A DNA stretch of 63,258 bases, filler included, from Sphaeroforma arctica JP610 (lineage: Eukaryota): the NCBI RefSeq assembly GCF_001186125.1. It is 6 parts of one record of this genome, joined end to end, with 100 filler letters (N's around TTAATTAATTAA, not from the genome) between each part and the next. Parts side by side here need not be neighbours in the genome. Positions count along the whole stretch, not along the records: positions 6,024 to 16,534 come from NW_014040546.1; positions 16,635 to 41,944 come from NW_014040546.1; 4 more parts are not named here. One strand, written 5' to 3'. Both the position numbers and the translations under genes were made by a program. A model generated the notes under the pieces. The model did not search any database and was not told the DNA's origin. It was given only the letters and a program-made list of their open reading frames with translations. Of the stretch, positions 4,001-42,346 are shown piece by piece; position 1 is the stretch's first letter; each line of letters starts with the position of its first letter.

Positions 4001-7000
4001 GGGTGTACAGAGCAATGGTCTATGCCCGCACTGGGAGATGGAGGTCTTCCAAATGACGGTGAGTACTACACAGTTATACGTTACTTGCACACATTACAGC
4101 TATACATTACACTTGCACACATTACAGCTATACATTACACTTGCACACACCACAGCTATACACCTGCACACACTACAGCTATACATTACACTTGCACCAC
4201 AGCTATACATTACACCTGCACACACTACAGCTATACATTACACCTGCACACACCACAGTCATATCATACTTTGTTTAGCGGAAGAGTGGGTGAGTGGTAG
4301 GCGGCTATTCGTGCGCGTGTTGTGGTGGACCTCTTTGGTTGCTAGGGTTGTGGTGTTCCTCTTTGGTTGCTAGGATTGTGGTGGTCCTGTTTGGTTGCTA
4401 GGGTTGTGGTGGTCCTCTTTGGATGCTAGGATTGTGGTGGTCTTGTTTGGTTGCTAGGAATGTGCTGATCCTGTTTGGTTGCTAGGGTTGTGGTGGTCCT
4501 GTTTGGTTGCTAGGGTTGTGGTGGTCCTGTTTGGTTGCTAGGGTTGTGGTGGTCCTCTTTGGATGCTAGGATTGTGGTGGTCCTGATTGGTTGCTAGGGT
4601 TGTGGTGGTCCTGTTTGGTTGCTAGGGTTGTGGTGGTCCTGTTTGGTTGCTAGGGTGCATGACTGGTCTATCCGACAACTGTTGCTATGACTGTGTGCAT
4701 TCACGCGTTGATACTCGCACGAGTGCTCGTACAAATAAAAGTTGGTTCTTGGCGTAGATGGATTGGGAGTGTCTGTGTTTGCCCCTTTGTGCACTCTGCT
4801 TAGTTTGTTGTATTCCTAAAGTCTGATTTTCTGCGCTTGAGTTTAAACCACTGCATTTTAGGACTTCTTTGGCAGAGGTTAATATTTAAGGTTCAACGTT
4901 TAACGTCCAGGTACTTGTGGTCCAGGTAGCAGAGTTCATAGTATTATGCTTTGGTCCATTGCGTGCGTGACTGGACACACAGTACTTGGATGCGAAGCTG
5001 TCTGCATGTGAATATGCAGTGACATTTGTTACTATTAGAAGGGCGACTATCATGCTTGCATACATAGTCATATCACTTGTATGTGCACATCTGTATATGT
5101 TAAGTGCTACGCGTTTTGTTGATATAGCTACATACAACCCCTTGCAGCATCTCAGCCCTGCCAAGAGGTTAGTATATAACTATCTACCCCCTAGTACATA
5201 ACTATCTACCCCCTAGTACATAGCTATCTACCCCCTAGGCGCATACCATATTCGTACGCTCACGCGCTTGTTTGTGCAAGGGCACATACTCACACTGCAC
5301 TCGTCAACCAGCCTCAAACGTACACAACACCAAACCCTAAACCCTAAACCCTCAAACATACACAACACACCCATTGTATCGCCCGTACACATACTATCCG
5401 CTGGTCTTACATTGATCCCATGCACACAGCTTCCCCTGTGCTAGTACTATGCTCTGCATCTTACAGTACTCCTACCCACATATCACAGTACTGCTATCCA
5501 CGTGCTGTTTCTGTATGCAGATATCATACCCTGTATTGTAAACCCTAAACCCCACTGATTTGCCTGTGCAGCTGCCATACGCTTCTCTCCCACTGACTCT
5601 CACGCACACACACACCCCTCTCTCGGCTTCTCCTCTCCTCTGCAGATTCTGTACCCTGACCTTGCACTGATCCGCCTGAGTGTGATGGACGAGGGTGTGT
5701 TTGGTGAGCCTCAAGCGTTTGCGCATGCGTGTGTGCCTGTGCGTTGTTTGAGAGCGGGGCTGCGTAGCATTCCTCTGGTCAATGGCCTGGGTGAGCCTCT
5801 GGAGATGTCGGCCTTACTCGTCAGATGTGAGCTCGAACCCCATCAACTGGTCCTGGAGGAGAAGGTAGGTGTATTGGTGCAGTTGTAGTTGTAGTATGTG
5901 TATTGGAGTAGTTGTGATTGTAGNNNNNNNNNNNNNNNNNNNNNNNNNNNNNNNNNNNNNNNNNNNNTTAATTAATTAANNNNNNNNNNNNNNNNNNNNN
6001 NNNNNNNNNNNNNNNNNNNNNNNACAAACTTACATATGTGCTCTGTCGGCTGTGTGCCTCAGGTGCCCTACTCAGCCATGGGCCAGGACGACATGGAGGA
6101 CATCAACCGACAGATAGAAGAGCTCACAGCCACACGCACAGTGGCCATTGCCAGAGGCGACAGCACTGACCTCGAGCAGTACGACGAGCAGATACGCGCG
6201 CTCTTCACCAAGGCCAAACGGTATGGAGAAGGATCTGCTGGGTGGTACTGTATCTGGAGTGTGTGTATTTGTGGTTTTATTGTTTTGTTTTATCAGATAG
6301 CGTCTTGTGAATCTTGCGTGTATATATGTGTTTATTTGGTTTTATATGTATCGTTTTGTAAGCCCAGATAGCTTGTGCATCTTGAGTTTATATACGTTTA
6401 TATAGTTTTGTGCATATGCATATAGCGTTTTGTATGACCAAATAGCTTGTGTAACTGGAGCGTGCATACGTTTTAATAGAGTTTTGTACATAAGGTTTTG
6501 TATCCCCGGATAGCTTGTTGATCTTGAGTGTACATACGTGTTTTTAGGGTTCTGCATATAGGGTATCTATGGCCAATGATGTGTTGTATACGAGTAAATT
6601 GGGTTTTGTCTTTATTCTGGACTGATTATGGCCTGGGCGTGTACAGTACAGTGCGTGTCCATTGGCGTCGACCTACGTTCTTAGGTTTTCGGTCGTTTTA
6701 GTGTTATTTGCGCGGTGTTTGTGCTTAGATTATCCTCGCACGTGTGTGCTCACAACTTTCAGTGCTCGTACCTATTTATAGGCTAAGGTTACGGGTTTTG
6801 TTTCTGTCGTTACGGACACAATTTGTCAGCGACGACACCCAGACATGACGGTCAATGTTTAAACACCCGTCAATATGCGCATCACTCGAAGATACTTTCT
6901 CTCTCGAGTCAGTACTGGACAATCGCTCTACTGTGACACAGTAGTCGTTACTAACAGCGCCTGTCTGTCGTATCACCTGAACGGTCTAATACGCACAGAA

Positions 7001-13806: not shown

Positions 13807-14800
13807 TGTTAGACTGTCAATTATAAGAGCTTAGAATAAGTGCTCTCTTGTGGTGCCTGCTCAAGACATTTATACTAAGAATCATTTTTGCCATGACTAA
13901 TTCATGAACAGGGGGAAAAACCGTATTTAGGAAAAACCCATTTACATTTTATGTTGTAGTTTATGTTGTCCAATACAAGCTCCGTATGGTTTTACTACGC
14001 TTATATTGGACCTTCATTGGTGACCCGGTAATACTCCCCCCCCAATTTTTCAAAGTTGTATCTGCTTCAACTTGGTTGTACAAGTTTTTGTTCTCTTGGA
14101 AACTCATCTCGAATCTGTGATATGGAATATCTGAGATAAACTTGGAAAATTGTACAATTTTTAGGTTTTATGAAAAGAAATATACGTCATCTGACTTTAT
14201 CATTTTGAGAAATTGAGTATTTGAAATGTACTCTGAGTCAGAAAAAAGAGTATTTATGGAGTTAATTTTTAGAGTTTCAGGATTAGAGTGTAGACCTTAG
14301 AGTTAGATTCATACTCTTGTTGTTGGAAAATGGAGCTTGAATAAATTTCAAATTTGTAAGAAGTGAGACACTGTGACAGACAGACTGTCTAATATCAAGG
14401 TCAATGTTAGTGTGACGGTGAGTGTGATTCAAATTGTAAAACGTAAACACGTTTTCAAATTAAAGCTTATACGAATATCATTCCATGTTGTTTGCAAATA
14501 TCAGGGGTTGAGGCTTAAAGCCTGGGCGTTCTTCCTGTTGAAAAAATTGAGTAAAGTAGCGGACCTGATACGCTGTTAGACTGTCAATTATAAGAGCTTA
14601 GAATACGTGCTTTATTGTGGTGCCTGCTCAAGGCATTTATACTACGAATTATTTCGGTCATGACTAATTCATGAACAGGGGTAAAACCCTTATTTAGGAA
14701 AAACCCATCTACATTTTATGGTGTAGTTTATGATGTCCAATACAAGCTCCGTTTGGTTTTACTACGCTTATATTGGACCTTCATTGGTTACCCGATAATA
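13807..14800 (-). mobile_element. TRIM-like non-autonomous LTR element (two 227-bp direct repeats flanking a 540-bp non-coding interior)
   Basis: Direct repeats 13807-14033 and 14574-14800 (TGTTAGACTGTC...TAATA); purine tract GGGGGGGGAG on minus strand at 14034-14043 directly abutting the left repeat; possible GTGT target duplication at 13804-13807 and 14801-14804. Confidence 0.7.
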
Positions 14801-15442
14801 GTGTAAACAGTAATCACTGAGGATGAGTGATGAATAAAGAGTGGAGCACTGGATAAGAGTGTATTTATAAAGCCGGACTCCGAGTAGTAGTAGGGCAAAG
14901 TAATAACAAAGAAGATATTTCGTTTAAAAAAACAAGGAAGAGTGTCATTAGCCCTGCTATTCTATTAGATCATATTTAAAATACATATCCTCTATGTACT
15001 GTATTGTTTGAGTTTTGAAAAGAATGTCAAATGAGACGATGACTCGTACTCGAACTTCGGATTCTTTTGAGTTTGGGTCCTGAATACTGATATCAGTCGT
15101 TTGGCACGATAACTCACGACTCACGACTACGATCGCTAATTATCGTCGTCATTTTTCCTTCGATGACCCTGTTAACTATTTAAGTATTTGTAAATTCAAA
15201 AAACTCTCCGTCATACGTTTGTGTCTATAGTCTATGCGGCGTCGGCAGTCGGCATTCGACACCCCGCAGTCCCGCACCCCCGTGTGACTATCTGACTATC
15301 CAGTCCACACTCCACGAGTCCACACCTAAAGACCCATTACTCTTAAAAGCCTAAATACCATATGACTAAAAACTATGACTAACCAGTAACAACCTTATGA
15401 CTTAAATTATGACTAAACTCCCTTATGTCTAAAATTTATGAC

Positions 15443-15600
15443 TAAGGCCCGTTCCACCATCAAATATTCGAGACTAAATATTCCTCGAATTTCGACTTTT
15501 AAAATATATATTTGGCTCGATTCGAGGTTCCCAAAAATTGGTTCCACCATCTATTACAGAATCGATTCTCGAATCTCGACAAATCCCGCCCAAATAAAAC
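15443..15600 (+). mobile_element. Possible PIF/Harbinger-type terminal inverted repeat end
   Basis: TAA followed by GGCCCGTTCCACCATC at 15446, with GTTCCACCATC repeated at 15541; no partner TIR seen nearby. Confidence 0.3.
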
Positions 15601-15964
15601 ATAAAAATTGCGCGGGCTTATATAGATAACACAAACATGATATTTTACATAAAAGTTTGTAGTATGTGTCGGTTACACAGTTATTGTTTCTTGTATGTAG
15701 CTGCAATTTGCAGCAGCTCGGTGACGTACAAACAATCTTTAACGTTTAGCAATGGTCTCTCTAGTATATTATCTTCAGCATGGATCGATTACACTTCCTT
15801 TTGTGGTGCCGCACACAAGATGTTCACCATTGGCAACCTGCCAAGCATCAGAGATGTTTGGTCAACAGACTTTCTGTCGCGTTCGCTTCGACATTAACAG
15901 TTGTGCACAATCTTCTTGATAACATACACCAGCGTCTTCACATACCGGTACCCCCAAGCCTAGG

Positions 15965-16400
15965 TCACACCAAAAATGATGGATTTACTTTGTACACAGA
16001 TGGAGGGCCAATACATACCCCGATGGTGTGCTCCCACGGGTATTTTCCACAAGCCTGTGAACCGTGCTTCAAGAATGTATGAGCCGTAAGTGGTATAAGT
16101 AGCGGGTCTGCTTGCATCATCGATAGAAGTAAAGGGAACCATGGCGCACGTGTGCTCAACGGTAAACATATTGTTGCCGATGCCTTGTCCTTCAACACAT
16201 TATGCAACACCTTCTGTATAAGACGCCACGATGGGTTCATCCGTGCGTTGTATTCACTCCAGTCAAACTTAAACGCCCCGCCATCTTTGCCGTACGACCA
16301 GTATTGGCGAAGCTGAACGTTATGACTCGAGGCAAAAGCGTCGACGTCGTTTGGTCCAAAGTGCTTCTGGATCAAACAACTTCCACCCTGACATATAGAA
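15965..16400 (-). pseudogene. Divergent DIRS/Dam-type DNA N6-adenine methyltransferase domain (third copy)
   Basis: FGPNDVDAFASSHNVQLRQY...AFKFDWSEYNARMNPSW...ATICLPLSTRAPWFPLL...TFL...PWEHTI aligns by eye with the MTase domains at 18.7-19.1 kb and 24.2-24.6 kb; motif IV reads NPSW at 16226-16237. Confidence 0.75.
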
Positions 16401-16454: not shown

Positions 16455-16533
16455 GACCGCTTTGCATTAATGAAAGACATTGAAAGGCACACACAAACTA
16501 CCCACTTACACTTAGCAGATGACAAAACTTATA
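16455..16533 (+). mobile_element. Fragment of another element-B-family protease region in opposite orientation
   Basis: DRFALMKDIERHTQTTHLHLADDKTY, near-identical reverse complement of about 25288-25366; ends at an assembly gap. Confidence 0.8.
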
Positions 16534-17189
16534 ANNNNNNNNNNNNNNNNNNNNNNNNNNNNNNNNNNNNNNNNNNNNTTAATTAATTAANNNNNNNNNN
16601 NNNNNNNNNNNNNNNNNNNNNNNNNNNNNNNNNNTAGTAGAATCCCCCAAAGATTTGTGGGCTAGCGGCATAGCGCCAGATGCGGTCGAGAATCCGTAGC
16701 AAGCCTTCCGCTGGACCATGCAAGGTGAGATACGACCGTAGTAGGTTCTGAGGCACCCGGATTTCGGCTTGGAATAGTCGTGCGCGGGATTTGTTGCGTA
16801 AGTGATAAAGTCGATGGCGATATCGGTTATATCCATGAGAGGGAAGGTGTTGGTCCGGAGGCGGCGGCATTGTTGGCATTTGTTGGAGTCGATGGATGTG
16901 TTCCGTTGGAAGTACCTGGAGATCAAGCCCAAAGGTGTGGTCACCATAGATGCTGTAGTCCGTCAGCTTATAGGTCTGGAGAAGTTGAGCCGCCAGCATA
17001 GAGATAATCCAAGTGCCACGTGTTATGTAGGGTAGTTTCGATTGTGTTCATACGTAGTCCGTGAATTGTGGATGCGTGGCCATACTTACGGGCTTTAAAG
17101 TTAATGTCGCCCCAAACGACGTCTGGTTGGAAATTGCCAATCTCGGGAGGATTCATGTATCTCCGGACGTCTTCGTCGGTGAGTGCGTG

Positions 17190-18310
17190 GTACAGTAAGT
17201 GATATCCTCATGTTTGTACTTACCAAGAATTTTCTTAAACTCATAAGACATAAGAGGTGCAGTAGCTTTACGTGTGCGACGAAGGATGATTTCAGTCGTT
17301 GGTATTCGATGTGATCCAATATTAAGAGCACTTGGACCGTCAAATTGTTAACTTCGTAAGTTCCACTCTTCTTATCGGCCACTGAAATCTTGAATGGCTC
17401 AATGTATTTAGCCGTAAGCACAGTTGTATCGGAGTTGCGAGCCATTATGTTGACTATACCGCCTACCTCAAACTCGACTATCTTTTTCGATTCATTCCAT
17501 CGCTTTTGTCTCTTCTTGAGCGCGATGTCCTTCATCTCTTTCAAACAAGGAAAGACGACGTCTCTGGTACGACGCATCTTCTCTAACCATAGTAACACAT
17601 GATCTTCTTGAGAATCCTTGTTGAAAGGTATTTGTAATCCACTATAACGGCCCCTGAAATAGTGGGCGGGTGCTGTACCGGTGACTGAATCCGATGTCTC
17701 GTTCATTTGTGTCTATACCCAGTTAATTGAGTATGGCCACAAGTCAGCATCGTCTAGCAACGCTCCACGCATGAACTCCTTCATCTTTCTGTGTCGCACC
17801 TCATTCGCACCTTGTGTCGGAGGCTTATAAGGTACACCCATTTTGTGGAATGATCCCGCAACGAGTAACAGCGTCGTCATGACGTCTCCTGTAAACTCAC
17901 TACCGTTGTCAGTACATACTATAGTTGGCCAACCGAAATCTGCGAAACACTTATAAATGCACTCAGCCACCGTTTGTGTTGATTTGTCTTTCAGAGGATA
18001 TAGTACATTATATCTTGAAGCGACATCAAAAACGTGACAGACATACTTATCTTTCGTGTGATCGGACGTGGGTAGCTCAACCAAATCAATGATAACCCTG
18101 CGCCATGGCTCGCCTTCTGATACACTCCGCAATGGGGCATATCCATAGCGCTTGATCCGGTTAACTTCGTAGTCGTTGCGTTCGTGATACACCTGAGATA
18201 TATATTGCTTAAACTTTGGTTGTACAATCCCGTACTTCTTGCAATCTTTCTCAGTCCTACCCTTATTCATGTGTTTAAGTGTATGATTCTGCCTTAACCA
18301 CTTCAGAATG
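17190..18310 (-). pseudogene. Element A DDE integrase with GPY/F-like motif and start of a chromodomain-like segment
   Basis: HTLKH zinc-binding remnant, PWRRVIIDLVELP, DVASRY, TDNGSEF, PPTQGANEVRHR, KYIEPFKI, then YEFKKILGKYKHEDITY in a shifted frame. Confidence 0.88.
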
Positions 18311-18726
18311 TCACCCTCCGTTGACCTTGCTATCTCAAAATCTGGAGGTGAGGAGTCCACTATTACATCACCTGGACTCGAAGACTCGTCTCGTCCAAAC
18401 TCGCATGAAAGGTCGGCCGTGTGAATTCTGCTAATATTCTCTTGGTCTATTAGTTGGGTTACATGGTCGTATACATCTGGATAATCGTTCATCAACTGTT
18501 TGAGTAGCCTGGTCTCGGCCTCGTATGCAGTTTCTCTGTCAGAACGTATCTTTTTGTAAAATGCCTTCGCTAGTTATGAGTTCCTCTTTGCATCCTTAGG
18601 ATCAGATTGTACCTCGGTAGCGCACACTGCAGGTGCGTGTGTCGCCCCAGCCTTTCTATGAGACTTAGGTGTCAAGAGTGGAATCTTGGATTCGTCGACC
18701 TTACGTTTGAAGGTCTCGGATGGTGT

Positions 18727-19149
18727 CTATTTGGTTGCACCAACTGAACCTATTCGACATATTATTGTATGTCGCCAAGAAGTCTTCTGGACTACACGGA
18801 TACCCTGGTAGAGAAAAGTATCTACCTCTCTATCCACATATATGGGCTCACATTGTATCATTGATATCAACTGTGGTAGCCATTTATCTGAATGTCTTAG
18901 GGAACAACACAACATGATGGTAGCATCTTGTATATGAACATAATTTAGCAACCGTGGTATTAACAACCACGGTAGATTCGCCCATGCGTTCTCATCGGAT
19001 AAATCGATTTGAAACCCATCACCGTCTGGATGTTCCAGAGTCCGGTATCGCGGCAGTTGCGCATTATGGTGTGCTGCAAACATATCAATGGTGTGTGGTC
19101 CATGTATGTTGTCTGCAATTTCAAACCACCTAGGATTGGCCTTCCAATC
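18727..19149 (-). CDS. Element A DNA N6-adenine methyltransferase domain (DIRS/Dam-like) fused in Pol
   Basis: DWKANPRWF...GPHTIDMFAAHHNAQLPRY...DGFQIDLSDENAWANLPW...WLPQL; in frame directly after RNase H (LPDMLSR); motif IV degenerate NLPW at 18967-18978. Confidence 0.85.
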   Translation of the reverse strand, partial: DWKANPRWFEIADNIHGPHTIDMFAAHHNAQLPRYRTLEHPDGDGFQIDLSDENAWANLPWLLIPRLLNYVHIQDATIMLCCSLRHSDKWLPQLISMIQCEPIYVDREVDTFLYQGIRVVQKTSWRHTIICRIGSVGATK

Positions 19150-19189
19150 CGTAGCTAGCAATTCCCTAACCATCTTGTTAAAATTCGGT

Positions 19190-19600
19190 ACGAAGCGTGA
19201 CAGCATATCCGGCAAATTTTTACCCGGTATATATGTTATGCTAAAAGAAATCTTTGCGATCGTATCGTGCCATCGACTGACCAATTGTGAATTTGGTTTC
19301 ATGTCTTTTAAATGTTGCAACGATTTCTGATCACACAGTACATTCAAATGTGTACCGTAAAGGTAGTCCTTAAAATGAGTGAGTGCGGTCACAATAGCTA
19401 GTAGCTCTGGCTGCACAGTCGGATAATTGATTTGTGACGAGTTCATAGCTCTGCTAAAGAACTGCACGTATCTCTATTTCCCGTCAATCATTTGATACAG
19501 TACACCTCCCAACGCCATGTCGGATGCGTCTGTAGCCACCATGAAGGGTACTCCATCTTTTGGTGGCTGGACTACTGGAGCTTGTTGAACCACGGTTTTG
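19190..19600 (-). pseudogene. Element A RT connection and Ty3/gypsy RNase H
   Basis: QAPVVQPP...FMVATDASDMALGGVLYQ...FFSRAMNSSQINYPTVQPELLAIV...CDQKSL...SRWHDTI...YIPGKNLPDMLSR. Confidence 0.9.
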
Positions 19601-19929
19601 AGCTGCTTCTTGACTTGTTCTCGTACCACCTGTTCATGACGCCACGCTACGTAATTTCGCGTTGGACATTTCAACTTCGAACAGTCTACTTTAGTCAAAT
19701 CTAAGCTCACGTATCCGTTGTTGAATTTAAACTGAGCCCAGTCGGTGATCTTTATCCTGTTGTTCTCAAAGATAAGATCCTTTAGCTTCTCTGTGAATTG
19801 GGGTATCATTTCCTTCACAGTCTTAGAAGGCTTATATACAGGCTTCAGCAAATTGTCAACTGACTGATCCTTCTGTGGGTCAATGTTAGTAGGCAAACGG
19901 GTAATTGTTATACCTGACAATAACAGATC

Positions 19930-20256
19930 TTCCATCCCCACTATTAAATCGTAATCTGGCGAAGTGTTACAGACTACTGCCTTAGTCACTGTGGTCCGTT
20001 GATCTGTTAGGTTAAACCTCAAATCTACGGCCATGTCACGACACGTAATCTCCCTTTCGTCAGCCAATTTTAACATATTAGGTTCTGATTTACGAGTTAC
20101 ATCAGTTATCTTACAGAATCTCGATGATAGACATGCAATTTGCGAGCCCGGATTCAACAACGCTTTCATTTCATGCCCATTAACTCGTACATCCAGGATG
20201 ACGCGTTCATCTTGCGCTGCATCCTTTTGTTTCAGTGCCAAGATCCGGTAAGATTG
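19930..20256 (-). pseudogene. Element A aspartic protease
   Basis: VRVNGHEMKALLNPGSQIACLS...LKLADE...DLIVGMEDL; the catalytic Asp reads Asn. Confidence 0.75.
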
Positions 20257-21671
20257 TCATTTAACTTCCACTTTCGGTTGCACCTTACATACGTGTTTGT
20301 GGTAACCTCCAGTCCCTTCACAGTCTGCACACTTCGCGATAAAATGGTTACATTTTTCTGCGTGCCTGCCATTCCAGCGTCCATTCGGCTCATGCTGGGT
20401 CATGCGCCAGCTGCAATCTGTCTCAGCACAGTCCTTGGTCTCCTTATACTTAGGTTTAGGAGGATCAGCTGCCTGATTAGATCTATTGCCCAGGGCCCCG
20501 CGAGTGTTGACATTGTTCTTTTGACCATCAGTACCTTGCATTTGCTTGTTCTTATGGCCTCCTCTGTCACCACCTTTGTTCACTTTGTTATTTCCCGTAC
20601 CCTTTTGAGAGTCTCGACCGTTACCTGGTTCTCCATTCGTGTTGGGCACCGTCTTCTCAGCACAGTCCTTGGTCTCCTTATACTTAGGTTTAGGAGGATC
20701 AGCTGCCTGATTAGATCTATTGCCCAAGGCCCCGCGAGTGTTGACATTGTTCTTTTGACCATCAGTACCTTGCATTTGCTTGTTCTTATGGCCTCCTCTG
20801 TCACCACCTTTGTTCACTTTGTTATTTCCCGTACCCGTATGAGAGTCTCGACCGTTACCTGGTTCTCCATTCGTGTTGGGCACCGTCTTCTTAGTAGACG
20901 GTGTGAATTTCACCACAGAACTCGGACGTTTCGAAAACGTCTGGTCTGCTCTCGAATAAAATCCAGTCCAAGTCAAGTCGGCGAGTTTCATGATGCCGTA
21001 AGTTGGCCCTTCAATTGAAATCTTACGTACTTTATCTGGAAAAGATTGGTGCATATCTGCGTACAACACTTATTGGTCTTTCCTATGTAGAGCCGACCAG
21101 AAAATAGTTTGTACTCATAGCACACACATACTCAACTTGTCTCGCGACATTTCTTGTGTTTGAGCACGTGTTATGTGAGTGTCCAATTCTAGAAGATAAT
21201 GTGACACAGGTGTTCCTTCGTCCGGTGGTACCATTATCGATAACAATAGTTCCCGCCTGGGATCGGTTGAGAATAGATGGACTATCATCTCGCTCTGCTC
21301 CTTCCACGTCTTTAGCTTTGTTATAGCAGTTTTAACCTTCTCCAACTTATTATACCTATAAGATAACGGCTTAAAACTCTGTTGCGCAGCCTCGAACCAT
21401 AGGTTCTTACGTAAATTTGCAGTGAGCATAATTTGACCAAATTCTTTTAAAGATCGCGACAATAATGCTAAGTTACTCGTATCGATAGGGTCCTTACGGT
21501 CTTTTCGATCTGAACGATATGTAGTGGGTAACTTACCTATGTCCTTGACGAACTTCTTACTGTCCACTGACTTCTCGGCGCGTATTATGCGTAGCTCCGT
21601 ATCAATCTTGGATTGAAAGTGCCTCGCCATTGTCATTCTCAAACCGACTTCTTTCCTTGATCCACTGCTAG
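20257..21671 (-). pseudogene. Element A gag (3' part) with 234-bp in-frame tandem duplication and C-terminal Cys/His fingers
   Basis: ORFs 21115-21642 and 20257-21069; duplicated units 20421-20654 and 20655-20888; position upstream of the protease. Confidence 0.75.
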
Positions 21672-22438
21672 TGTAAGTTTCGGTCTATCAAGGCAATATT
21701 AACACCATAGAGTAAATAAACGCTTAGGTTAAGTCTAAGTATATCAAAATTTAAAAGTAAATAAACGAAATGAGTCTTTTAGTAAAGTTAGGTATGCCTC
21801 GTGAAAACAGCAATACTCTGAGGGATTGTGAGGCTGAGACATTGCCTATATATAATCCTCTCAGTACTGTTTTCACCGAAGGGATTTTATTTAGTGTTTC
21901 ATTGTTGCTTTAATAGAAACTATGGTATGTTTCGTTGTTGCTTTAATAGAAACTATGGTATGTTTCGTTGGGGCGAATCCGAGAGACTCATAAAATTCTA
22001 TCTTTAGAAAAAAAGAAGAAAAAAAGGAAGAAAAAACTCTTGGATGTCCATAGTTAGTGCATTAACCAATAACTTGCCACTTACAAGAATTACTGACTTA
22101 GCCTTCATCAGACTGGCACATCTGGTTGGCTGAACGGAGGATAAACTAAGCAACGCTAATAGTCCTTAGAAACCTATGTTCGGTTGAGCCATCTCGCTAC
22201 CGAAGTATTCAGATATAAATAGATTTGGAAGGTTAAGATAGTTCTATTAATAGAACTAGACCAAATATTATATTTGGTATTTTACTGGGGCCTTTTAATG
22301 GCCTTGTCCAAATATCTGATATGTAAAATGGAAAAGGTATTTCATTAATAAAAACCGTTAAATCCTACTTAAGAGTATACGTACTTTTAAGAGTACGTTT
22401 ATATTACAAGATTCTAATGTGGAGGCCCGGCTTTTACA
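21672..22438 (-). repeat. 3' LTR of element B
   Basis: TGTAA...TTACA termini; colinear, highly similar copy at about 27859-28624; left boundary less certain than right. Confidence 0.85.
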
Positions 22439-22450
22439 CAGCCCCCACCC
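22439..22450 (-). other. Polypurine tract of element B
   Basis: Minus-strand GGGTGGGGGCTG immediately precedes the LTR start TGTAAAAG; absent next to the other LTR. Confidence 0.75.
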
Positions 22451-22740
22451 AGTTTTGAGACCCAGGAGAAGCAAGTTGCTCACTCAAGCTGATTATGGGT
22501 AGCAATAAAAAAGGAAAACGGGTCGAAAACATTAAGTAGCATAACGTATAGTTAATGTTTCTCAGGCGGAGAAGTTAAGCGTTCTCGGTTACCCTGTGAG
22601 TTTTGCAGTAGGTCCGTGGTGGGCGACTGGACGTTTCTTACGCTTCAATGTTTTGGAAACATACGAAGGATGAGCAGTAAAGCCCGGGATAAACGCTGTT
22701 GGCGGGTAAGTGTTAACTTCCGTGCCTTCAGTCGATCTAG

Positions 22741-23720
22741 GTCTTCTATGACGCGTTTCATTCGCGCCTTGTGTTTGCGGTTTATATGGTACACCCCTTT
22801 TATGGCACATGCCTGATACGAGTACTAACGATTCCTTTATGTCATCGCAGAACTCGCTACCGTTATCAGTACACATTATACCTAACCTCCCGTGGTCAGC
22901 AAAGACTTGGCAACATAATTCTGCCACGGTCTGTGTACTCTTGTCCTTTAACGGATAGAGCAAGGTATACCGTGACGCCACATCAAAGAAGTGGCATACG
23001 TAACGGAAAACGTTGTACCTTCTCTAACAATGGTAACTCATAGTGATTAGGTTCGTCCTTGTTAAAAGGTATTTGTAACTCTCTATATCTGTCACGAAAA
23101 TAGTGAGCGGGTGTTGTACCTATAACCGGATCAGCACACTCGTTCACATGTGTTTGAAGGTGGTACGGCCAATCATCTGCATCATCCGTTAATGCAGTAC
23201 GTAAGAAGAACTTAAGTCTTCTATGACGCGTTTCATTCGCGCCTTGTGTTTGCGGTTTATATGGTATACCCCTTTTATGGCACATGCCTGATACGAGTAC
23301 TAACGATTCCTTTATGTCATCGCAGAACTCGCCACCGTTATCAGTATACATTATACCTAACCACCTATGGTCGGCAAAGACTTGGCAACATAATTCTGCC
23401 ACGGTCTGTGTACTCTTGTCCTTTAACGAATAGAGCAAGGTATTCCGTGACACCACATCAAAGAAGTGGCATACGTAACGGTCGCCTGTGTGCTCGGACG
23501 TAGGCAGGTCAACCAGATCAATTATGACCCTGCGCCATGGAACATCTTCAGTCACACTCTTAAGCGGTGCGAACCCATAGCGCTTAATCTGGTTGAGATC
23601 ACTGATATACTCTGTCAACTAAAGTTGCCAGCTTAGGGTGCGCGATCCCATTTCGTTTAGCATCTTTAAGTGCGTCTACTACGTTCTGGTGCTTCAGCTT
23701 ATGGTATTGCGTCAGCCAAG
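22741..23720 (-). pseudogene. Element B DDE integrase with 266-bp internal duplication and deleted C-terminus
   Basis: PWRRVIIDLVDLP, TDNGGEF, PQTQGANETRHR; 22741-23006 duplicates 23216-23481. Confidence 0.88.
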
Positions 23721-24149
23721 CAAGAATGTTTTCCTCATTCTGCTCTTCCAGAATATAGGTAGGGTGTTGAGAATCCACTTGCGTGGTCTCTAAGTCTGTA
23801 GTGTTTCCAACTCCTGTCCTTCTTTTACATGAGTTTCATAAGTGCGCTCGTGTGCATTTGATACACCTGACTTATTTAATAGTCGCATTATATGTGTATA
23901 TGCTTCAGGATTATCTTTCATCAATCCCTTTAAAAATAGGGGTTGAAAGACTTCGGGCTTGAACTTTATGTTAATAAGCAGAGTCCTAGCTAGAGACTGA
24001 GGCTTCTTAACTGTAGTGTCATTAGTAGATTGTATTTCTTGTGCATAGACTTCAAGTGCTGTGTTGCCTTTGAACTGCTTAACGTTCAATTTAGTAGAGA
24101 GTGGAATCTCTGATTCTTTGACCTTGTTTAGGAAGGTCTCGGAAGGGGT

Positions 24150-24572
24150 CCATTTGGTTGTTTCAATGGGACCTATACAACATATTTTAGCATGTCACCA
24201 GGGCGTCTTCTGGACGGCTCGGGTACCCTGATATAGGAAAGTGTCTACTTCCCTATCTAAATATATTGGCTCGCATTGTATCATGCTTATTAATGTATTG
24301 AGCCATGGATCTTTACTCCGTAATGGGCAACACAACGTGATGGTAGCTTTGTGCATATGAACATAATTTAGTAATTGGGCAATAAACTGCCAAGGTGGAT
24401 TGGCCCACGCATTATGTTCGGAGAGGTCTAGTTAAAAGGCATCTCCTAAAGGATGATTTAAAGTCCTGTAATTATTAAGTCGTGCATTATGATGTGCAGC
24501 AAACATGTCAATTGTATGTGGCCCAAATATCTTTTGAGCCAATTCAAACCACCTGGGGTTTCATTTTCAATC
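24150..24572 (-). pseudogene. Element B DNA N6-adenine methyltransferase domain with intact NPPW motif
   Basis: Manual translation: D*K*NPRWFELAQKIFGPHTIDMFAAHHNARLNNY...DAF*LDLSEHNAWANPPWQFIAQLL...CCPLRSKDPWL; NPPW at 24390-24401; internal stops hide it from the ORF track. Confidence 0.88.
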
Positions 24573-24619
24573 AGTGGCTAGTAACTCACGTACGGTTTTA
24601 TTAAAGTCCGGTACAAAGC

Positions 24620-25266
24620 GTGATAACATATCCGGTAAATGGTTATGTATCCCTGGTAGATGTTTGATATCTAAATAAAACCTTGATAGTGTATCATGCC
24701 ATCGGCTCAGTAATTAAGAGTCTGGCTTCATTTCCTCCATATATTGAAGGGACTTCTGATCGCACATCAGCGTAAAAGCTGTTCCGTATAAGGATTCGCG
24801 AAAGCGTGTTAGAGCTGCTACTATGGCTAGTAGCTCTTGCTTCACAGATGTATACTTCAACTGTGATGCTTTCATTGCTCGGCTAAAGAATTGTATATAC
24901 CTAGGTTTATTATCTATAACCTGGGATAGTACACCTCCGAGTGCTAGGTCTTATGCGTCCGTTGCTATTTCAAAAGGCACGCCATCGACTGGTCCTTGTA
25001 CAACAGGGGCCTGTTGGACTGCGTTCTTGAGCGCTTTAAATGCGTCATCACACTCTTTAGTCCACAAATCTCCTAGTTTGCCTTTATGACATCTTAAGTG
25101 TCCAAAGGGTTTAAGATAATCAGCCAAGTGTGGTACTCCATCTGAAAAGAAGTTTACAAACCCACACATGCTGTTCACATCCCTTCCTGTAGTCGGTGTT
25201 CGCCAATCTAACAGGTTTTCTACCTTACTGGGGTCGATTTTAATACCTTCCCCAGATATACGGTAG
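24620..25266 (-). pseudogene. Element B RT C-terminal part, connection and RNase H
   Basis: YLG...WRTPTTGRDVNSMCGFVNFF...WTKECDDAFKALKNAVQQAPV...IATDA...FFSRAM...KQELLAIV...CDQKSL...HLPDMLSR. Confidence 0.9.
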
Positions 25267-25286
25267 NNNNNNNNNNNNNNNNNNNN

Positions 25287-25501
25287 GTATAAGTTTTGTC
25301 ATCTGCTAAGAGTAAGTGGGTAGTTTGTGTGCGCCTTTCAATGTCTTTCATTAATGCAAAGCGGTCGGATATACATGAAATTTCTGAACCAGGATCAATC
25401 AATGCAAAGACTTTATTTCCATTGCAATATACAGGTATTATTACACGCTCGTCTAAAGAGTCGTTGTATTTCCTTTGAAATGATTGTACCTGGTAGTACT
25501 T
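25287..25501 (-). pseudogene. Element B aspartic protease (N-terminal half)
   Basis: VYCNGNKVFALIDPGSEISCIS...LLLADD; truncated by a gap. Confidence 0.8.
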
Positions 25502-27733
25502 TCACTCCAATTTAATGTCGGGCTTTTTGTCACAAGACTTGGCGTGATAGCTATTGGTCTTCTCACACTTGTCACACTTAGTAAGAAAGTGTGCACAGGC
25601 GGGTGCATGTCTGCCATTCCAATAACCGTAAGGGGTCAATTGGTACATGTCATACCCACACTGTGCGTCGGCGCATTTCTTAATCTCCCTAAATGAAGGT
25701 TCCTTGTCCTTTGCCTCTGCGCGGGCCCGTTCATTGGGTCGCATTGATTGAGTGGAGTCACGAGCACGTGTCTGGTTAGGACGCGTCTGATGAGGTTTAT
25801 CATCTGACGTCTGGCGTGAGAGGTATCCTTGATCAGCGTGCTCGCGCTGTTTTTTATTTACCGCCTTTCCCTTCGAGGTTTCTCGGTGTGCGGGGAAAAG
25901 AGTAGATACAGTAACATAAATGTTCCCACGCAAGTCGGGATAGATAAAACTTTGTTTCATGTCCCTTGTCTCGAGCCTCAGTAGCGTATTTACGTCGCAA
26001 CTCGGTGTACAGACTTTCACGGGCGTTGTTCCCTATGTTCTTACAGAAAACATGCATAACCAGGAACTCGTACCATCGCAGCGCCTTGTCCTTTGTTATA
26101 TCTGGACGTTTAAGGTCAGCATCAAGTTTCAGAACATAACTCTGAATAAGAGTATTCTCAATTGGTTTAGTTAAGATTGAACTCAGTCCTGGACTTCGCA
26201 TGTCCTTGCTTAATAAGGACGTAACCAACCAACACACAACTGGCCAGTCACGATAAGTTTCTAGCTCATGCTGGTGTCGTTGCAAGATCAAGTAATTTGT
26301 TCCTGTAGGGTCAAACGACTGCATTAAAGCGGAAATTCATGGCTTGAGTGCGATATCATTCGTCTCCAGCATGACCAGAAACGTATTAAGCGTACGGGTT
26401 AATGTGTCGAGGTCATGGTTGTTTATAAACTCGACCTGCTTGCTGTTGGCATCCCAGTTCGACTTAAGTCGACTGATCTGTCTTTTGTACCTCTGGTTAT
26501 CCCTGTGGTCTTGACCACGTTGGGCCTGAAGTAGCTGATCGATGCGCTTCTTCTTGATCGCGATCATATTAGCAAAATATGATACGTCATCAGCATGGTG
26601 CTCGTCGTGGGTGATTTCCATCTTAATGGTGTAATCGTCGACCGATTTATTAAGTTCGGTCACCTTGTCAGAGTGGAAATCTTCTGCGGGCTGGTGTAAT
26701 GCTGTGCGATCGAAGCGATTAAATTCGACATCGTTAACACGTCTACGGGGGTGTTTATTACCCCTTGTATAGTCCATGGTCGAGGCCTGTCGGTGCTCTA
26801 TTCCTCGGATAGTAGTTGTATTATATTCTTGGGTGATTCATGCATCTGGGTAACATACCCAGTCTTAACTGGTTTTCGACGATTGTGGTCTCAGTTGGGT
26901 AAAAGTGGTGGAGTAATTTTTACCTGCCTCTGAGTCTATAATACCCTCAAGGACGGGCGACTCATGGCCGGGTGTTAGAACAGGCGAGTAATTAGCCTGA
27001 AGTTCTGGTGGTAGTACTTCGTAAGGTATAGATACGCTGAACACATCTGGCTCATCTGTCACAGGTGCAGCGCTCAGCCCTTTACGATTTTCGGGCGTAA
27101 ATGTCTGTCGACGTTCTGTCCACCTCTGTAGGGCTTCAGTAGTGCCCGGAAAAACATGCTCGCGTAAGTGCTGTGTATGTTTTCCTGATCTATACATTCG
27201 ATCTGCATGTTCAACAGTCATGTCTTTCATAAGGGCGGCTAACTGATTCTTAAGATCTATGTTTTCAGTAATTAACATACTTATGCGCGTTGGTTCAGTG
27301 GTCTTCGGACGTAGATTCGGGTTTGCCACTTGAGCTTGCCTCTTCTTCTGGTTCCGTTATAGGTACCTTCTGAGATTCGTCTTTGTCTCCTATAATTGGT
27401 GACTTTTCTTTCCGAGTTTCGTCAGAAGAATTGGTTGGGGCGTCTTGAGACGTGTTCCTTGTTTACTTCTTGGATTCGTAAATGCAAGCTTTGAAGTTGA
27501 AGCAATAGTTGGCCCTCGGGCTCTGTCTGTAGGAGTAGTCTCCTTAATCAGAGTGGCTACATCTTTATCCGAATTATTGTCCTGTTGACTATTATTGTCG
27601 GAGACAAGTGCTTCGGCTACGGTGCGGTTGCTTCTGCGGCAGCTGTAGCTGTGGCAGCGTTAGTGGCTTCTCTCCCTATCTTCTTACGTTCAGCCTTGCG
27701 TTTCTTTGCAGGTATATTGTCTTTCTTTGTCAT
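25502..27733 (-). pseudogene. Element B gag, frameshifted
   Basis: Starts MTKKDNIPAKKRK at 27733; fragments 26865-27329, 26337-26777, 25854-26324, 25502-26020; ends in the same Cys/His array as element A gag. Confidence 0.75.
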
Positions 27734-27858
27734 AATCTTAACTTATGACTTCAGTCTTTTTCTCTTAAGGAATGACTGTGCTTAAGAAAAATTCGTGGTA
27801 GTTATATACCTTTACGTTCAAGTAGTCTGAGTAGTTAATACCTTTGTTAACTTTGCAA

Positions 27859-28624
27859 TGTTAAAGATTCGGTCAATTAAGGCGATATTAACACCTTAGA
27901 GTAATTAATCGCTTAAATTAAGTCTAAGTATATCAAAATTTAAAAGTAAATAAACGAAATGAGTCTTTTAGTACAGTTAGGTATGCCTCGTGAAAAAGCA
28001 ATACTCTGAAGGATTGTGAGGCTGAGACATTGCCTATATATAATCCTCTCAGTACTGTTTTCGCCGAAGGGATTTTATTTAGTGTTTCGTTGTTGCTTTA
28101 ATAGAAACTATGGTATGTTTCGTTGGGGCGAATCCGAGAGACTCATAAAATCCTATCTTTGGAAAAAAAGAATAGAAAAAAAAGAAGAAAAAACTCTTGG
28201 ATATCCTTAGTTAGTGCATTAACCAATAACTTGCCACTTATCAAGAATTACCGACTTAACCTTCATTAGACTGGTACATCTGGTTGGCTGAACGGAGGTT
28301 AAACTAGGTATCGCTAATAGTCCCTAGAAACCTATATTCGGTTGAGCCATCTTGCTACCGAAGTATTCAGATATAAATAGATTTGGAAAGTAAATATAGC
28401 TATATTAATAGAACTAGACCAAATCTTATGTTTGGTATTTTACTGGGGCCTTTTAATGGCCTTGTCCAAATATCTGATATGTAAAATGGAAAAGGTATTA
28501 ATTAATAAAACCGTTCAAGACCATTTATGAAACTTAAGTTCCTTGTACTATTAAGAGTACGTTTATAGTTTGCTTAAGAGTACGTTTATAACATAGAGTC
28601 TAATATGGAGGCCCGGCTATTACA
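27859..28624 (-). repeat. 5' LTR of element B
   Basis: Colinear copy of 21672-22438, ending GGAGGCCCGGCTATTACA at 28624. Confidence 0.85.
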
Positions 28625-33523: not shown

Positions 33524-35339
33524 GTGAGACTGGTGAGTGAGCTCAAGGCCTCAAGTCGGCACTCATCACCCTTCACACAATTGTAAAAAAAATACATTCT
33601 GATACTACTCGTAAAATCAAGAATAAATAGTATCTCTTTGTAAAAAATGTATAAATTCTGTTTGTCTTCCCAATATAAAACTTTTAAATTAAAAAAGTTG
33701 GTCGTCTGCATAGTATTTAATTTTACTTTTCTACCAAATCATTAACATTCCGATGCTACTCTCGAGCAATAACATGACAAAATTTTGTTTACAATACACA
33801 AATACCACAAGGCAGTAAAGAGTAATATATAACCGTAACCAGTCCAATGGGTCCGATTATTAAAAACATTACTGTGTACAAAAAATCAACACGGTTTGCT
33901 ATGCAAACTACTTTTTTATAGCAAAAACATAGCCTTCTGAAGTTCTTAATCTTGCAAAGAATTTCTTTATACGGCACTGGTAACAATATAATTATTAACG
34001 CCCGAGCCGTGTCCAAAACCGCATCCGGGTCCGTTCGCAAAGGTAGGGTCCATATTTATGGGACCGCCCCAAATAAACCTCGGTCCAGAAAATGGACCAG
34101 GGTACATCACCGACAGGGTCGATATTTATGGGCCCACGTAAGGCGACCTTGACCCCAAGTACCGAACTATTAAGCTTGTATACTTTACGAAAACCAAAAA
34201 GTATCACCTGAAATAGAATATCAATATTCATTACAACGCCTCACCTCTCTAGAGAGTCAATGTTCTGTTAAACTTGTGAGCGTGAGTTCGTGGATCCATA
34301 CTTCTGAACATTATAACAAAAATTTCGTTTCATAGCCTTCTAATTGTACAAGAGAGAAGGCCATGAATGATCGTTTGGTTTGCACAATTGCTCTGTGTTC
34401 AACAATGTTGTTGTTTTTTTTGTCCCGTTCTGTTGTAAATTTCAGGTCCAAGGGATTTCCGATTTTATCCTGTTCTGTGATTTCATTGTGGGTCGCATGT
34501 TTTTTACAAAACAAAAATACTACATTATAAATTGCCTTCTAAAAAGGCTGTGACCAACACACAAGTAAGTTGTTCGGGGCTGTGAGCCTGTGAGTGTGTT
34601 GCAGACTTGCAGAGTTGCAGTGTTGTCACTTGTCACTGTTGGATCAGACAGGCTCAGACAACCAGTGCTGAAAAAAAAGTTCCTTATCCAATCCAGTACA
34701 ATGTTGCACTTGACTTTACGCACGGCCCAATGAGGCTAACCCATCGCTAAAAGCAAGGAGCGTTTCCGAGTTAGGCGTACTAACACTTACGCACACTTTG
34801 AATGAATCCTTGCCATTGGTACAGTTTAAAACACCAGGTCTCTACGAGCGATTTTATGGCTACAACATGTGCCTTCTTTTTAAAGCCGTGGTTGTGTATA
34901 TTGTATTCGCTCCTTCCTTGACACTGACATACCAAAATAGGACACATCTTAGCTGTTTTGCCTTTATTTTACTTCATGATGTGCAAGTGTATTGCATAAT
35001 TATAAAAATTCCTCTAGTTTTTTTTAAATAATATGTTCTGTACTTCTGTAGTCATTCTTTTCGGCTAGAAAATACCTCTGCCTCAAAAATATATTCATGA
35101 TATTCATGAAAAGCATGCACAATAAGAAATACTGAGCATTCCACCAAGAAGTAGATGTGTAGTAAATGGTCCACAGACAACAGACTGCTCACGCGAGTCA
35201 GCCTTTCACACGAGCCAGTCCTGCTTGAAGTTTCGTCTACTGTTATTCAGAAATTTAGTATAAATATAATGTCATTAAGTATATTATTTGCATTCTCTGA
35301 AGTTATTCTATCCAGCACATTTAAGTATAACCATTCAAT

Positions 35340-35834
35340 ATGAGATTTTCAATTGTAGCTGCCACTGCCACGTTGATGCTTGCCGCTAGTGTCAGCGCCA
35401 AGGCCGAGTGCGAGGATTTCACTGCGTCAATCTACCTGGGCAATGACGAGTGTGATGGCGACAAAAAAGACCCAATCATTATTACGAACCCTATCAAGCT
35501 CTCGAAAAAATGTAATAATGTTAAGATAGCCGTTGGTAGTTTGAAGGTTGACGGATCAGTGATTGTAGATATTGATGAAGATGGTGACGAGGACGCCGAA
35601 TTCGACCCTCTCACTTCGACAATTTTCCTCGGAAAGAACTGTAAAGAGGAATCAGAGATCACCACACAGAAAGATATCCAGATAGCAGATTGTGTGGACG
35701 GATTCAAAATTTTAGGCCAAGATTCCTCGGTCGAGCTCCTGTGCAAGAAAAAGACTGGTGACGATGACGATGACGATGACGATGATGATGATGATGGTGA
35801 CGACGACGACGACGACGACGATGACGACGAGTAA
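35340..35834 (+). CDS. Intronless secreted Cys-containing protein with C-terminal poly-Asp tail
   Basis: 164-aa ORF; signal-peptide-like MRFSIVAATATLMLAASVSA; six Cys; mixed GAT/GAC Asp codons; TATAA just upstream. Confidence 0.8.
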   Translation: MRFSIVAATATLMLAASVSAKAECEDFTASIYLGNDECDGDKKDPIIITNPIKLSKKCNNVKIAVGSLKVDGSVIVDIDEDGDEDAEFDPLTSTIFLGKNCKEESEITTQKDIQIADCVDGFKILGQDSSVELLCKKKTGDDDDDDDDDDDDGDDDDDDDDDDE

Positions 35835-41818: not shown

Positions 41819-42346
41819 GTATGCACTGGCATATACCGGCATAGCATCAACAATATCTGCGAGATAACATATCCGGCTTGGGGCACTTCATAAAACAGTT
41901 CACTTTACACGCTGATCACACCCATGCGATTGATACAATCATATNNNNNNNNNNNNNNNNNNNNNNNNNNNNNNNNNNNNNNNNNNNNTTAATTAATTAA
42001 NNNNNNNNNNNNNNNNNNNNNNNNNNNNNNNNNNNNNNNNNNNNTATCCATTTTAACAAACGGCATAGGTTGGTACAGTCTAGTGAGCATATCCATCTTA
42101 ACAAACGGCATAGGTAGATACAGTCCAGTGAGCACTTGGTCACTATGCAAGACAACTAGTATACATACATCTTAACAAACGGCATAGGTAGGTACAGTCA
42201 CCGTATCCTCTCGGCCAGACGGACGATAAAATATAGCGTCGCAATGCACGCACACGTTAATACCCATTCACAGCATAAGTGTGATATACATCGAACAACC
42301 TATTGCACCCACAAGCAACCGCTGCACTACCAAGTAACCACCGCAC

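What the first reader, a model, noticed from the sequence alone, without database searches (positions are those of the whole stretch)
17101..28624. Ty3/gypsy LTR retrotransposon lineage carrying its own DNA N6-adenine methyltransferase between RNase H and a DDE integrase
Seen: two clearly diverged elements share the Pol order PR-RT-RNaseH-MTase-linker-integrase. The MTase follows LPDMLSR in frame, with an IDMFAAHHN AdoMet-type motif and WANPPW (B, 24390-24401) or WANLPW (A, 18967-18978). B has true direct LTRs and a PPT. Established: a Dam-like MT domain after RT-RH is characteristic of DIRS tyrosine-recombinase retroelements, while Ty3/gypsy elements normally have RH joined directly to integrase. 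Inference: this family packages an amino-methyltransferase with its Pol products and may mark its cDNA or insertion sites with 6mA (or 4mC), for example to protect or license new copies. Protein conservation alongside visible nucleotide divergence between A and B argues for selection rather than a one-off capture. I cannot confirm from here that it is undescribed.
Basis: partly seen in the sequence, partly recalled or inferred. Interest (0 to 1): 0.92.

Follow-up and report, generated by a model that had tools for sequence, protein, structure and literature searches.

The report
Gypsy retrotransposons carrying adenine methyltransferase
Two broken, back-to-back copies of a gypsy-type jumping gene in a single-celled relative of animals carry a well-conserved domain predicted to methylate adenine, a real design that a May 2026 preprint already described in this group of organisms.

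Summary
The architecture is real but already known. Two dead Ty3/gypsy copies (A, B; minus strand) lie in tandem around a shared LTR. Each has an amino-methyltransferase domain in frame between RNase H and a DDE integrase. The domain is conserved as strongly as RNase H (dN/dS about 0.1) and folds as a SAM-dependent N6-adenine methyltransferase. Intact one-ORF relatives keep it, so it is no inserted DIRS fragment.

Corrections: neither copy shows an RT core (deleted in A, inside an assembly gap in B), and A has NLPW instead of NPPW.

A host exon matches Sphaeroforma arctica at 98%, and the domain groups with Abeoforma DAM-LTRs (97/98). This is the 'Ichthyosporean DAM-LTR' lineage of bioRxiv 10.64898/2026.05.21.726589, which reported 6mA enrichment in S. 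arctica. This scan also noted such elements on other DNA.

Small additions: the nearest solved fold is the RNA cap methyltransferase PCIF1, ahead of T4/E. coli Dam, which points to hybrid or single-stranded substrates. Several relatives carry a degenerate chromodomain-like tail. Activity is untested.

The parts
27897..28624 (-). 5' LTR of element B (starts TG; 3' end inferred from the following PBS-like motif, no terminal CA)
25500..27720 (-). B gag-like region, broken, ending in Cys/His knuckles; 23.5% identical to A gag over 217 aa (E 5e-15)
25287..25490 (-). B protease N-terminal part (by eye from translation), cut by the assembly gap
25267..25286 (.). 20-N assembly gap where the rest of the protease and the RT core of B would lie
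24618..25265 (-). B RT thumb/connection and RNase H (P0001 residues 355 onward), 2 stops
24168..24575 (-). B amino-methyltransferase domain (IDMFAAHHN, NPPW at 24401-24390), 4 stops
23007..23754 (-). B integrase (zinc-binding region and DDE core), C-terminus missing
22738..23006 (-). duplicated piece of B integrase (96% identical to 23213-23481)
22441..22456 (-). polypurine-tract-like stretch of B
21708..22438 (-). shared LTR: 3' LTR of B and 5' LTR of A
21692..21707 (-). PBS-like motif of A (starts TGG); primer not identified
20257..21684 (-). A gag-like region, same frame as pol, with a 240-bp tandem duplication
19930..20193 (-). A aspartic protease domain (Pfam gag-asp_proteas E 3.5e-4; catalytic Asp replaced)
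19600..19900 (-). A start of RT, ending at an in-frame deletion of the RT core (P0001 residues 174-426 absent)
19195..19548 (-). A RNase H, Ty3 type (PF17917 E 1.6e-17)
18745..19152 (-). A amino-methyltransferase domain, open frame, NLPW at 18978-18967
17341..18330 (-). A integrase with D, D and E present (PF00665 E 2e-13)
17186..17341 (-). A integrase C-terminal tail in a shifted frame; position of the chromodomain-like tail of relatives, not detectable here (E 0.44)
15930..16378 (-). third, separate MTase fragment (NPSW) of another repeated family of the same DAM-LTR clade, on the neighbouring contig

Best explanation
These are two dead copies of an ichthyosporean Ty3/gypsy 'DAM-LTR' family whose Pol protein carries a conserved domain predicted to be a SAM-dependent N6-adenine methyltransferase, which likely marks the new DNA copy during reverse transcription. 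Shown: the domain lies in frame between RNase H and integrase, is under purifying selection, has the amino-MTase fold, and sits in one ORF with RT, RNase H and integrase in intact relatives. Inferred: (1) it is made as part of Pol and so is packaged in the particle beside RT; (2) being small (about 140 aa, no separate target-recognition domain) and closest in fold to PCIF1, it would act on RNA:DNA hybrid or single-stranded cDNA offered by RT/RNase H rather than on naked double-stranded DNA; (3) the copy would integrate pre-marked with 6mA, which the host ApT methyltransferase AMT1 would maintain, keeping the insertion in transcription-permissive chromatin. Step 3 is the preprint's model. Identity of the element: about 0.95. 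Mechanism: about 0.5.
For: In-frame position and motifs. dN/dS 0.106 for the MTase (132 codons; pN/pS 95% CI 0.17-0.36) vs 0.094 for RNase H. AlphaFold model pLDDT 90.4; best matches are PCIF1/CAPAM (Foldseek E 2.4e-4; VIA Z 11.0, rmsd 4.2, 148 aligned), then DIMT1/KsgA and T4 Dam (Z 8.2). 12 of 151 homologues hold RT, RH, Dam and IN in one chain, and 14 of 14 LTR-type members of the closest clade keep NPPW/NPPF. P0001 is 65% identical, and its best PDB match is Ty3 Gag-Pol (E 3e-71). The RT tree separates 14 LTR-type from 36 DIRS-like rows (SH-aLRT 100). MTase and integrase trees both place A and B with P0001 (100) inside a clade with Abeoforma proteins (97/98 and 99/98; names). Host exon is 98% identical to S. 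arctica SARC_00404. The preprint reports more 6mA and more expression on DAM-LTR than on other LTR insertions in S. arctica and A. whisleri, and AMT1 in 9 of 13 DAM-LTR species. [quoted passage not shown]
Against: No activity has been shown: DAM-LTR, DIRS and adintovirus domains did not raise 6mA in dam-minus E. coli. The reported enrichment was scored at ApT sites, the AMT1 motif, so it may follow from transcription rather than cause it. Iyer et al. judged DIRS1 MTase domains likely inactive (PMC4738411 passage). DIRS elements keep the domain in hosts without 6mA, so the domain does not need AMT1 to be selected. The element shows no ApT or GATC bias that points to a target (ApT observed/expected 0.85-1.0). 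dS is near saturation (1.9), so the ratio is rough. Both window copies are dead and say nothing on present activity.
Confidence: 0.5

Rival explanations
1. The domain is an RNA methyltransferase, like PCIF1. It would put m6A or cap-adjacent m6Am on the element's own RNA, affecting stability, packaging or priming. The 6mA seen on genomic copies would be a by-product of higher transcription.
For: PCIF1/CAPAM is the best fold match by 2 Z units over all others, and rRNA adenine MTases fill most following rows. 14 of 50 aligned homologues weakly match Pfam PCIF1_WW (best E 0.0012). Iyer et al. place DIRS1 MTases in the PCIF1 clade. The dsDNA assay in E. coli was negative. The domain persists in DIRS of hosts without 6mA.
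Against: 46 of 50 homologues match the phage Dam family PF05869 (best E 9e-17), far better than PCIF1, and two relatives match a phage DNA-MTase PHROG (E 5e-12). A sequence profile found no amino-MTase in PDB at all, so the fold ranking may only reflect that no close phage relative has been solved. A shared fold shows no substrate.
Confidence: 0.22
2. The domain is catalytically dispensable. It is kept as a SAM- or nucleic-acid-binding or structural module of Pol.
For: Iyer et al.'s view for DIRS1 domains; the negative assay; 27 of 151 homologues had no recognisable [NDSF]PP-aromatic motif; A has NLPW and the third fragment NPSW.
Against: 115 of 151 homologues and 14 of 14 LTR-type members of the closest clade keep NPP-aromatic. 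Motif-I residues D, F, A are at least 90% conserved in alignment A1. The odd motifs in the window are in dead copies.
Confidence: 0.17
3. The enzyme makes N4-methylcytosine rather than N6-methyladenine on the cDNA.
For: Amino-MTases of both kinds share the fold and a [DNS]PP-aromatic motif (established knowledge, recalled); not testable from sequence.
Against: All close structural matches are adenine enzymes. NPP-aromatic, not SPP-aromatic, dominates. The preprint links these elements to 6mA.
Confidence: 0.06
4. The arrangement is an accident: a DIRS fragment inserted in a gypsy element, or an assembly chimera.
For: Draft assembly with gaps; collapsed repeats are likely; the RT core is not seen in either copy.
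Against: The same in-frame junctions occur in two copies whose silent sites are nearly saturated. RH-MTase-IN lie within gap-free contig stretches. 12 one-ORF relatives exist. The ten best homologues are all Ty3-type. MTase and integrase trees agree.
Confidence: 0.02

Closest known systems
Ichthyosporean DAM-LTR lineage (Fernandez-Moreno et al., bioRxiv 10.64898/2026.05.21.726589, May 2026; Pirum gemmata, Abeoforma whisleri, Sphaeroforma arctica)
   Same: Ty3/gypsy organisation with a PF05869-like domain, NPP-aromatic motif, small five-strand fold; same host group; the window's domains group with Abeoforma proteins at 97/98 support.
   Different: Nothing of kind. The window's copies are dead. 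The preprint says the lineage lacks chromodomains, whereas several clade members, including an Abeoforma protein, show a degenerate chromodomain-like tail. Its supplementary tables were not seen, so whether these exact families are listed is unchecked.
DIRS tyrosine-recombinase retrotransposons (RT-RH-MT)
   Same: Homologous Dam-like domain directly after RNase H (PMC3783388 passages); many DIRS-like proteins among the 150 listed hits.
   Different: This element has a protease, a DDE integrase, direct LTRs and a Ty3-type RT/RH. No tyrosine recombinase was found among the 14 ORFs scanned.
PCIF1/CAPAM cap-specific adenosine N6-methyltransferase
   Same: Best structural match (Foldseek E 2.4e-4; VIA Z 11.0); same clade according to Iyer et al..
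   Different: 11-16% identity; the element's domain lacks PCIF1's WW and helical domains. Substrate not shown to be the same.
Phage/bacterial Dam (PF05869; T4 Dam, E. coli Dam)
   Same: Weak Pfam match in the window, above cut-off in relatives; same fold class (T4 Dam Z 8.2, E. coli Dam Z 7.9).
   Different: Much shorter; window copies are below the Pfam cut-off; no GATC signal in the element.

Membership tests
Ty3/gypsy LTR retrotransposon | Direct LTRs flanking the coding region | tested here: met
   B is flanked by about 730-bp direct repeats, 92% identical in aligned bases. A's 3' LTR is absent from the contig.
Ty3/gypsy LTR retrotransposon | Polypurine tract before the 3' LTR | tested here: met
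   Purine-rich tract at 22441-22456 directly before the TG start
Ty3/gypsy LTR retrotransposon | Primer-binding site matching a tRNA 3' end | tested here: inconclusive
   A conserved motif follows both LTRs (TGG start in A). No tRNA in the window, no genome held, no self-priming match above 7 nt.
Ty3/gypsy LTR retrotransposon | Pol order PR-RT-RH-IN with DDE integrase last | tested here: met
   PR, RH, IN in order in A. RT core absent from both window copies but present in the 65%-identical P0001.
Ty3/gypsy LTR retrotransposon | RT of Ty3/gypsy type | tested here: met
   Tested on P0001 as stand-in: best PDB match Ty3 Gag-Pol, E 3e-71; RT tree splits LTR-type from DIRS-like at 100 (no named reference RTs in the tree)
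Ty3/gypsy LTR retrotransposon | Target-site duplication | not testable with these tools
   The far end of the tandem is missing at the gap at 16634
DIRS retrotransposon | Tyrosine recombinase; no protease or DDE integrase | tested here: not met
   Protease and rve found, no phage-integrase hit in 14 ORFs scanned
DIRS retrotransposon | Inverted terminal repeats | tested here: not met
   Terminal repeats are direct
DIRS retrotransposon | Dam-like MT domain after RNase H | tested here: met
Ichthyosporean DAM-LTR lineage | Ichthyosporean host | tested here: met
   Exon 3876-4055 is 98% identical to S. arctica SARC_00404, the 1 hit among 6 candidates. One exon only.
Ichthyosporean DAM-LTR lineage | DAM domain in one clade with Abeoforma/Sphaeroforma DAM-LTRs | tested here: met
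   17-row clade, 97/98, with Abeoforma P0005-P0007. S. arctica SARC_08637 is 67% identical over 43 aa.
Ichthyosporean DAM-LTR lineage | No chromodomain | tested here: inconclusive
   None detectable in A or P0001, but chromodomain-like tails in 7 of 11 relatives (E < 0.001 in a 13-sequence search; 6 are in the clade, P0031 is outside), profile-profile probability 96.6%. Pfam Chromo stays below cut-off.
Ichthyosporean DAM-LTR lineage | Raised 6mA and expression of insertions | not testable with these tools
   Reported in the preprint; no modification data here
N6-adenine amino-methyltransferases | SAM-dependent class I fold | tested here: met
   Model pLDDT 90.4; best matches PCIF1, DIMT1/KsgA, T4 Dam
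N6-adenine amino-methyltransferases | Catalytic [DNS]PP-aromatic motif | tested here: met
   NPPW in B and P0001; altered to NLPW in A
N6-adenine amino-methyltransferases | Methyl transfer to adenine N6 | not testable with these tools
   The preprint's E. coli assay was negative
Pfam Dam PF05869 | Score at or above gathering cut-off 28.1 | tested here: not met
   A 16.5-17.9 bits, P0001 26.2; relatives 39-54 pass

The most novel reading that the evidence does not exclude
The 'Dam' of DAM-LTR and DIRS elements is a PCIF1-like enzyme that methylates the element's own RNA or the RNA:DNA hybrid inside the particle: a retroelement-encoded epitranscriptomic writer. This would explain the failed double-stranded-DNA assay and the domain's survival in hosts without 6mA. 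The preprint's main text never mentions PCIF1.
Probability: 0.22. Interest if true: 0.7.

Novelty: already known. Interest (0 to 1): 0.17.

Why it matters
If the enzyme is active, these elements would write their own activating mark and exploit the host 6mA system, the reverse of silencing by cytosine methylation. That idea is already in print as a preprint, with methylome data from S. arctica, so this locus adds one decayed example. What remains open is the substrate. The PCIF1-like fold suggests testing RNA, hybrid and single-stranded substrates on a naturally intact member such as P0001.

Tried and rejected
No whole genome is held, so copy number and family-wide dN/dS were not computed.

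Sequencing runs: no RNA holder listed. Run X9, guessed as RNA, covers the unique flank 14800-16124 at flat depth with no differences, so it behaves as DNA and says nothing on expression. Summed contig depth over the MTase bins is hundreds to thousands of times that of the flank; this fits a high-copy family but is not a copy number. No listed contig bridged the B-LTR-A junction, so the tandem rests on the assembly.

A sequence-profile search of PDB with alignment A1 found no methyltransferase (2 chance hits, E 2). PHROGs gave only weak unnamed hits for the window domains. ApT, CpG and GATC counts gave no target hint. Self-priming and tRNA search for the primer gave nothing. I considered a LINE endonuclease fragment at 16640-17190; three frames gave no Pfam hit, so it is unassigned. 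Integrase dS was saturated, so no ratio.

Literature searches: (0 papers). No earlier description of DAM-LTRs than the preprint turned up; subscription journals are not covered. No look-alike windows among earlier findings.

Rows dropped before trees: RT tree used 50 of 151 proteins (those with a scorable RT); MTase trees 70, then 35 rows (14 DIRS-like rows hand-picked). 'DIRS-like' is my label from RT score and lack of integrase.
Full report
Observation. The region holds two LTR retrotransposon copies on the minus strand in the layout LTR - B - LTR - A. The LTRs (about 27897-28624 and 21708-22438) share 646 of 700 aligned bases. A purine-rich tract precedes the middle LTR and a PBS-like motif follows it, so it serves as B's 3' LTR and A's 5' LTR. 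In both copies RNase H (PF17917, E 1.6e-17 in A) is followed in frame by a 136-codon domain with IDMFAAHHN and NPPW (B) or NLPW (A), then a linker and a DDE integrase (PF00665, E 2e-13 in A).

The RT claim is not. No YxDD occurs in either copy. Against the intact relative P0001, A lacks residues 174-426 in frame, and B's Pol resumes at residue 355 at the edge of a 20-N gap. Contigs in two of four laid runs join position 19606 to 25036, which fits other copies keeping the stretch that A has lost. B has six stops in RH plus MTase and a truncated integrase. Both copies are dead.

Is the domain a real, selected part of Pol? Between A and B the MTase is 73% identical in residues, with 65 of 113 base differences at third positions. 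dN/dS is about 0.106, against 0.094 for RNase H (Nei-Gojobori, dS near saturation, so rough). The search for longer proteins gave 3 hits among 115 candidates, all RT-RH-Dam polyproteins, the best 65% identical. The exhaustive search gave 655 hits at E <= 0.001, 150 listed. Of 151 proteins examined, 12 hold RT, RNase H, Dam and integrase in one chain, and 115 keep NPP plus an aromatic residue; 27 showed no such motif (Pfam, which covered 33 proteins). An AlphaFold model from a 50-row alignment has pLDDT 90.4. Its best solved matches are PCIF1/CAPAM (Foldseek E 2.4e-4; VIA Z 11.0, rmsd 4.2, 148 aligned), then DIMT1, KsgA, T4 Dam (8.2) and E. coli Dam (7.9). Pfam Dam is matched by 46 of 50 rows, PCIF1_WW weakly by 14 of 50. 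The window's own Dam score is below the curated cut-off.

Placement. P0001's best PDB match is Ty3 Gag-Pol (E 3e-71). An RT tree separates 14 LTR-type from 36 DIRS-like rows with SH-aLRT 100. In the MTase tree, A, B and P0001 form a clade (100/99) inside a 17-row clade (97/98) of LTR-type sequences that includes three Abeoforma whisleri proteins. The integrase tree agrees, so MTase and integrase have descended together. LTR-type MTases as a whole were not one group: two chromoviral rows joined a DIRS-like row (95/90), in line with repeated capture. A host C2-domain exon at 3876-4055 is 98% identical to Sphaeroforma arctica SARC_00404, so the host is Sphaeroforma or a very close relative (one exon tested).

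What is known. I read the whole main text, without the supplements, of bioRxiv 10.64898/2026.05.21.726589. It reports DAM domains in LTR retrotransposons, at least four captures from DIRS, and an Ichthyosporean DAM-LTR lineage in Pirum, Abeoforma and S. arctica. It found more 6mA and higher expression on these insertions than on other LTRs, AMT1 in 9 of 13 such species, and no activity in dam-minus E. coli. It proposes marking of RNA-DNA intermediates followed by AMT1 maintenance. The DIRS MT domain is described in PMC3783388 (passages). PMC4738411 (passages) puts DIRS1 MTases in the PCIF1 clade and thinks them inactive. [quoted passage not shown] This scan has 23 earlier findings with the same words in at least 3 genomes; the 8 shown reach the same preprint. 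I had found it.

Mechanism. The most likely reading (about 0.5) is that the domain travels in Pol, methylates adenine on the hybrid or single-stranded cDNA during reverse transcription, and delivers a pre-marked copy that AMT1 maintains. Position, conservation and fold are shown. Packaging, substrate and AMT1 hand-over are inferred. The PCIF1-like fold and that enzyme's poor activity on dsDNA would explain the negative E. coli test. They equally allow an RNA substrate (0.22). A non-catalytic role (0.17) and 4mC (0.06) are less likely. An insertion artefact (0.02) is excluded by the intact relatives.

Small additions. (1) The preprint does not mention PCIF1. (2) It says the lineage lacks chromodomains, yet 7 of 11 relatives tested show chromodomain-like tails at E < 0.001 in a 13-sequence search, among them Abeoforma P0007 (E 1.2e-8); one of the seven, P0031, lies outside the clade. 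A profile of seven hand-anchored tails aligns to chromoviral chromodomains at 96.6% probability. P0001 and A were not detected, and Pfam Chromo stays below cut-off. (3) A and B share a 92%-identical LTR while their Pol silent sites are nearly saturated and their gags are 23.5% identical, which suggests recombination at the LTR (inference). (4) A third MTase fragment of the same clade lies at 15930-16378.

Verdict. Real, correctly read in outline, already known. Interest 0.17.

Noticed in passing
window 21708-22438: One LTR is shared between two subfamilies whose Pol silent sites are nearly saturated and whose gags are 23.5% identical; likely recombination between conserved LTRs, or an assembly join.
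   Followed up: partly
window 15930-16378 (-): Third MTase fragment (NPSW), from another repeated family of the same DAM-LTR clade, 37% identical to P0001.
   Followed up: partly
window 16455-16533 (+) and 25288-25366 (-): A 79-bp piece of B-type protease DNA (97% identical) sits inverted at the end of the neighbouring contig, and both copies stop at the same point next to assembly gaps; possibly a repeat-collapse artefact.
   Followed up: partly
P0002, P0003, P0007, P0010, P0012, P0055 C-termini: Degenerate chromodomain-like tail in members of a lineage described as lacking chromodomains.
   Followed up: partly
P0030: A 2144-aa protein with an endonuclease/exonuclease/phosphatase domain and Dam placed before RT-RH-integrase zinc finger: a different Dam position.
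   Followed up: no
window 16635-17190: Repeated DNA (high contig depth) after A's integrase, with open frames but no Pfam hit; unassigned.
   Followed up: partly
window 3876-4055 (+): Host exon of a C2-domain protein, 98% identical to S. arctica SARC_00404.
   Followed up: yes
window 35331-35834 (+): Single open frame with a signal-peptide-like start and an Asp-rich tail; likely a secreted host protein.
   Followed up: no
window 5924-6023, 16535-16634, 41945-42044, 44669-44768, 59231-59330: 100-base gaps with a central 12-base A/T palindrome: scaffolding linkers, not biology.
   Followed up: no
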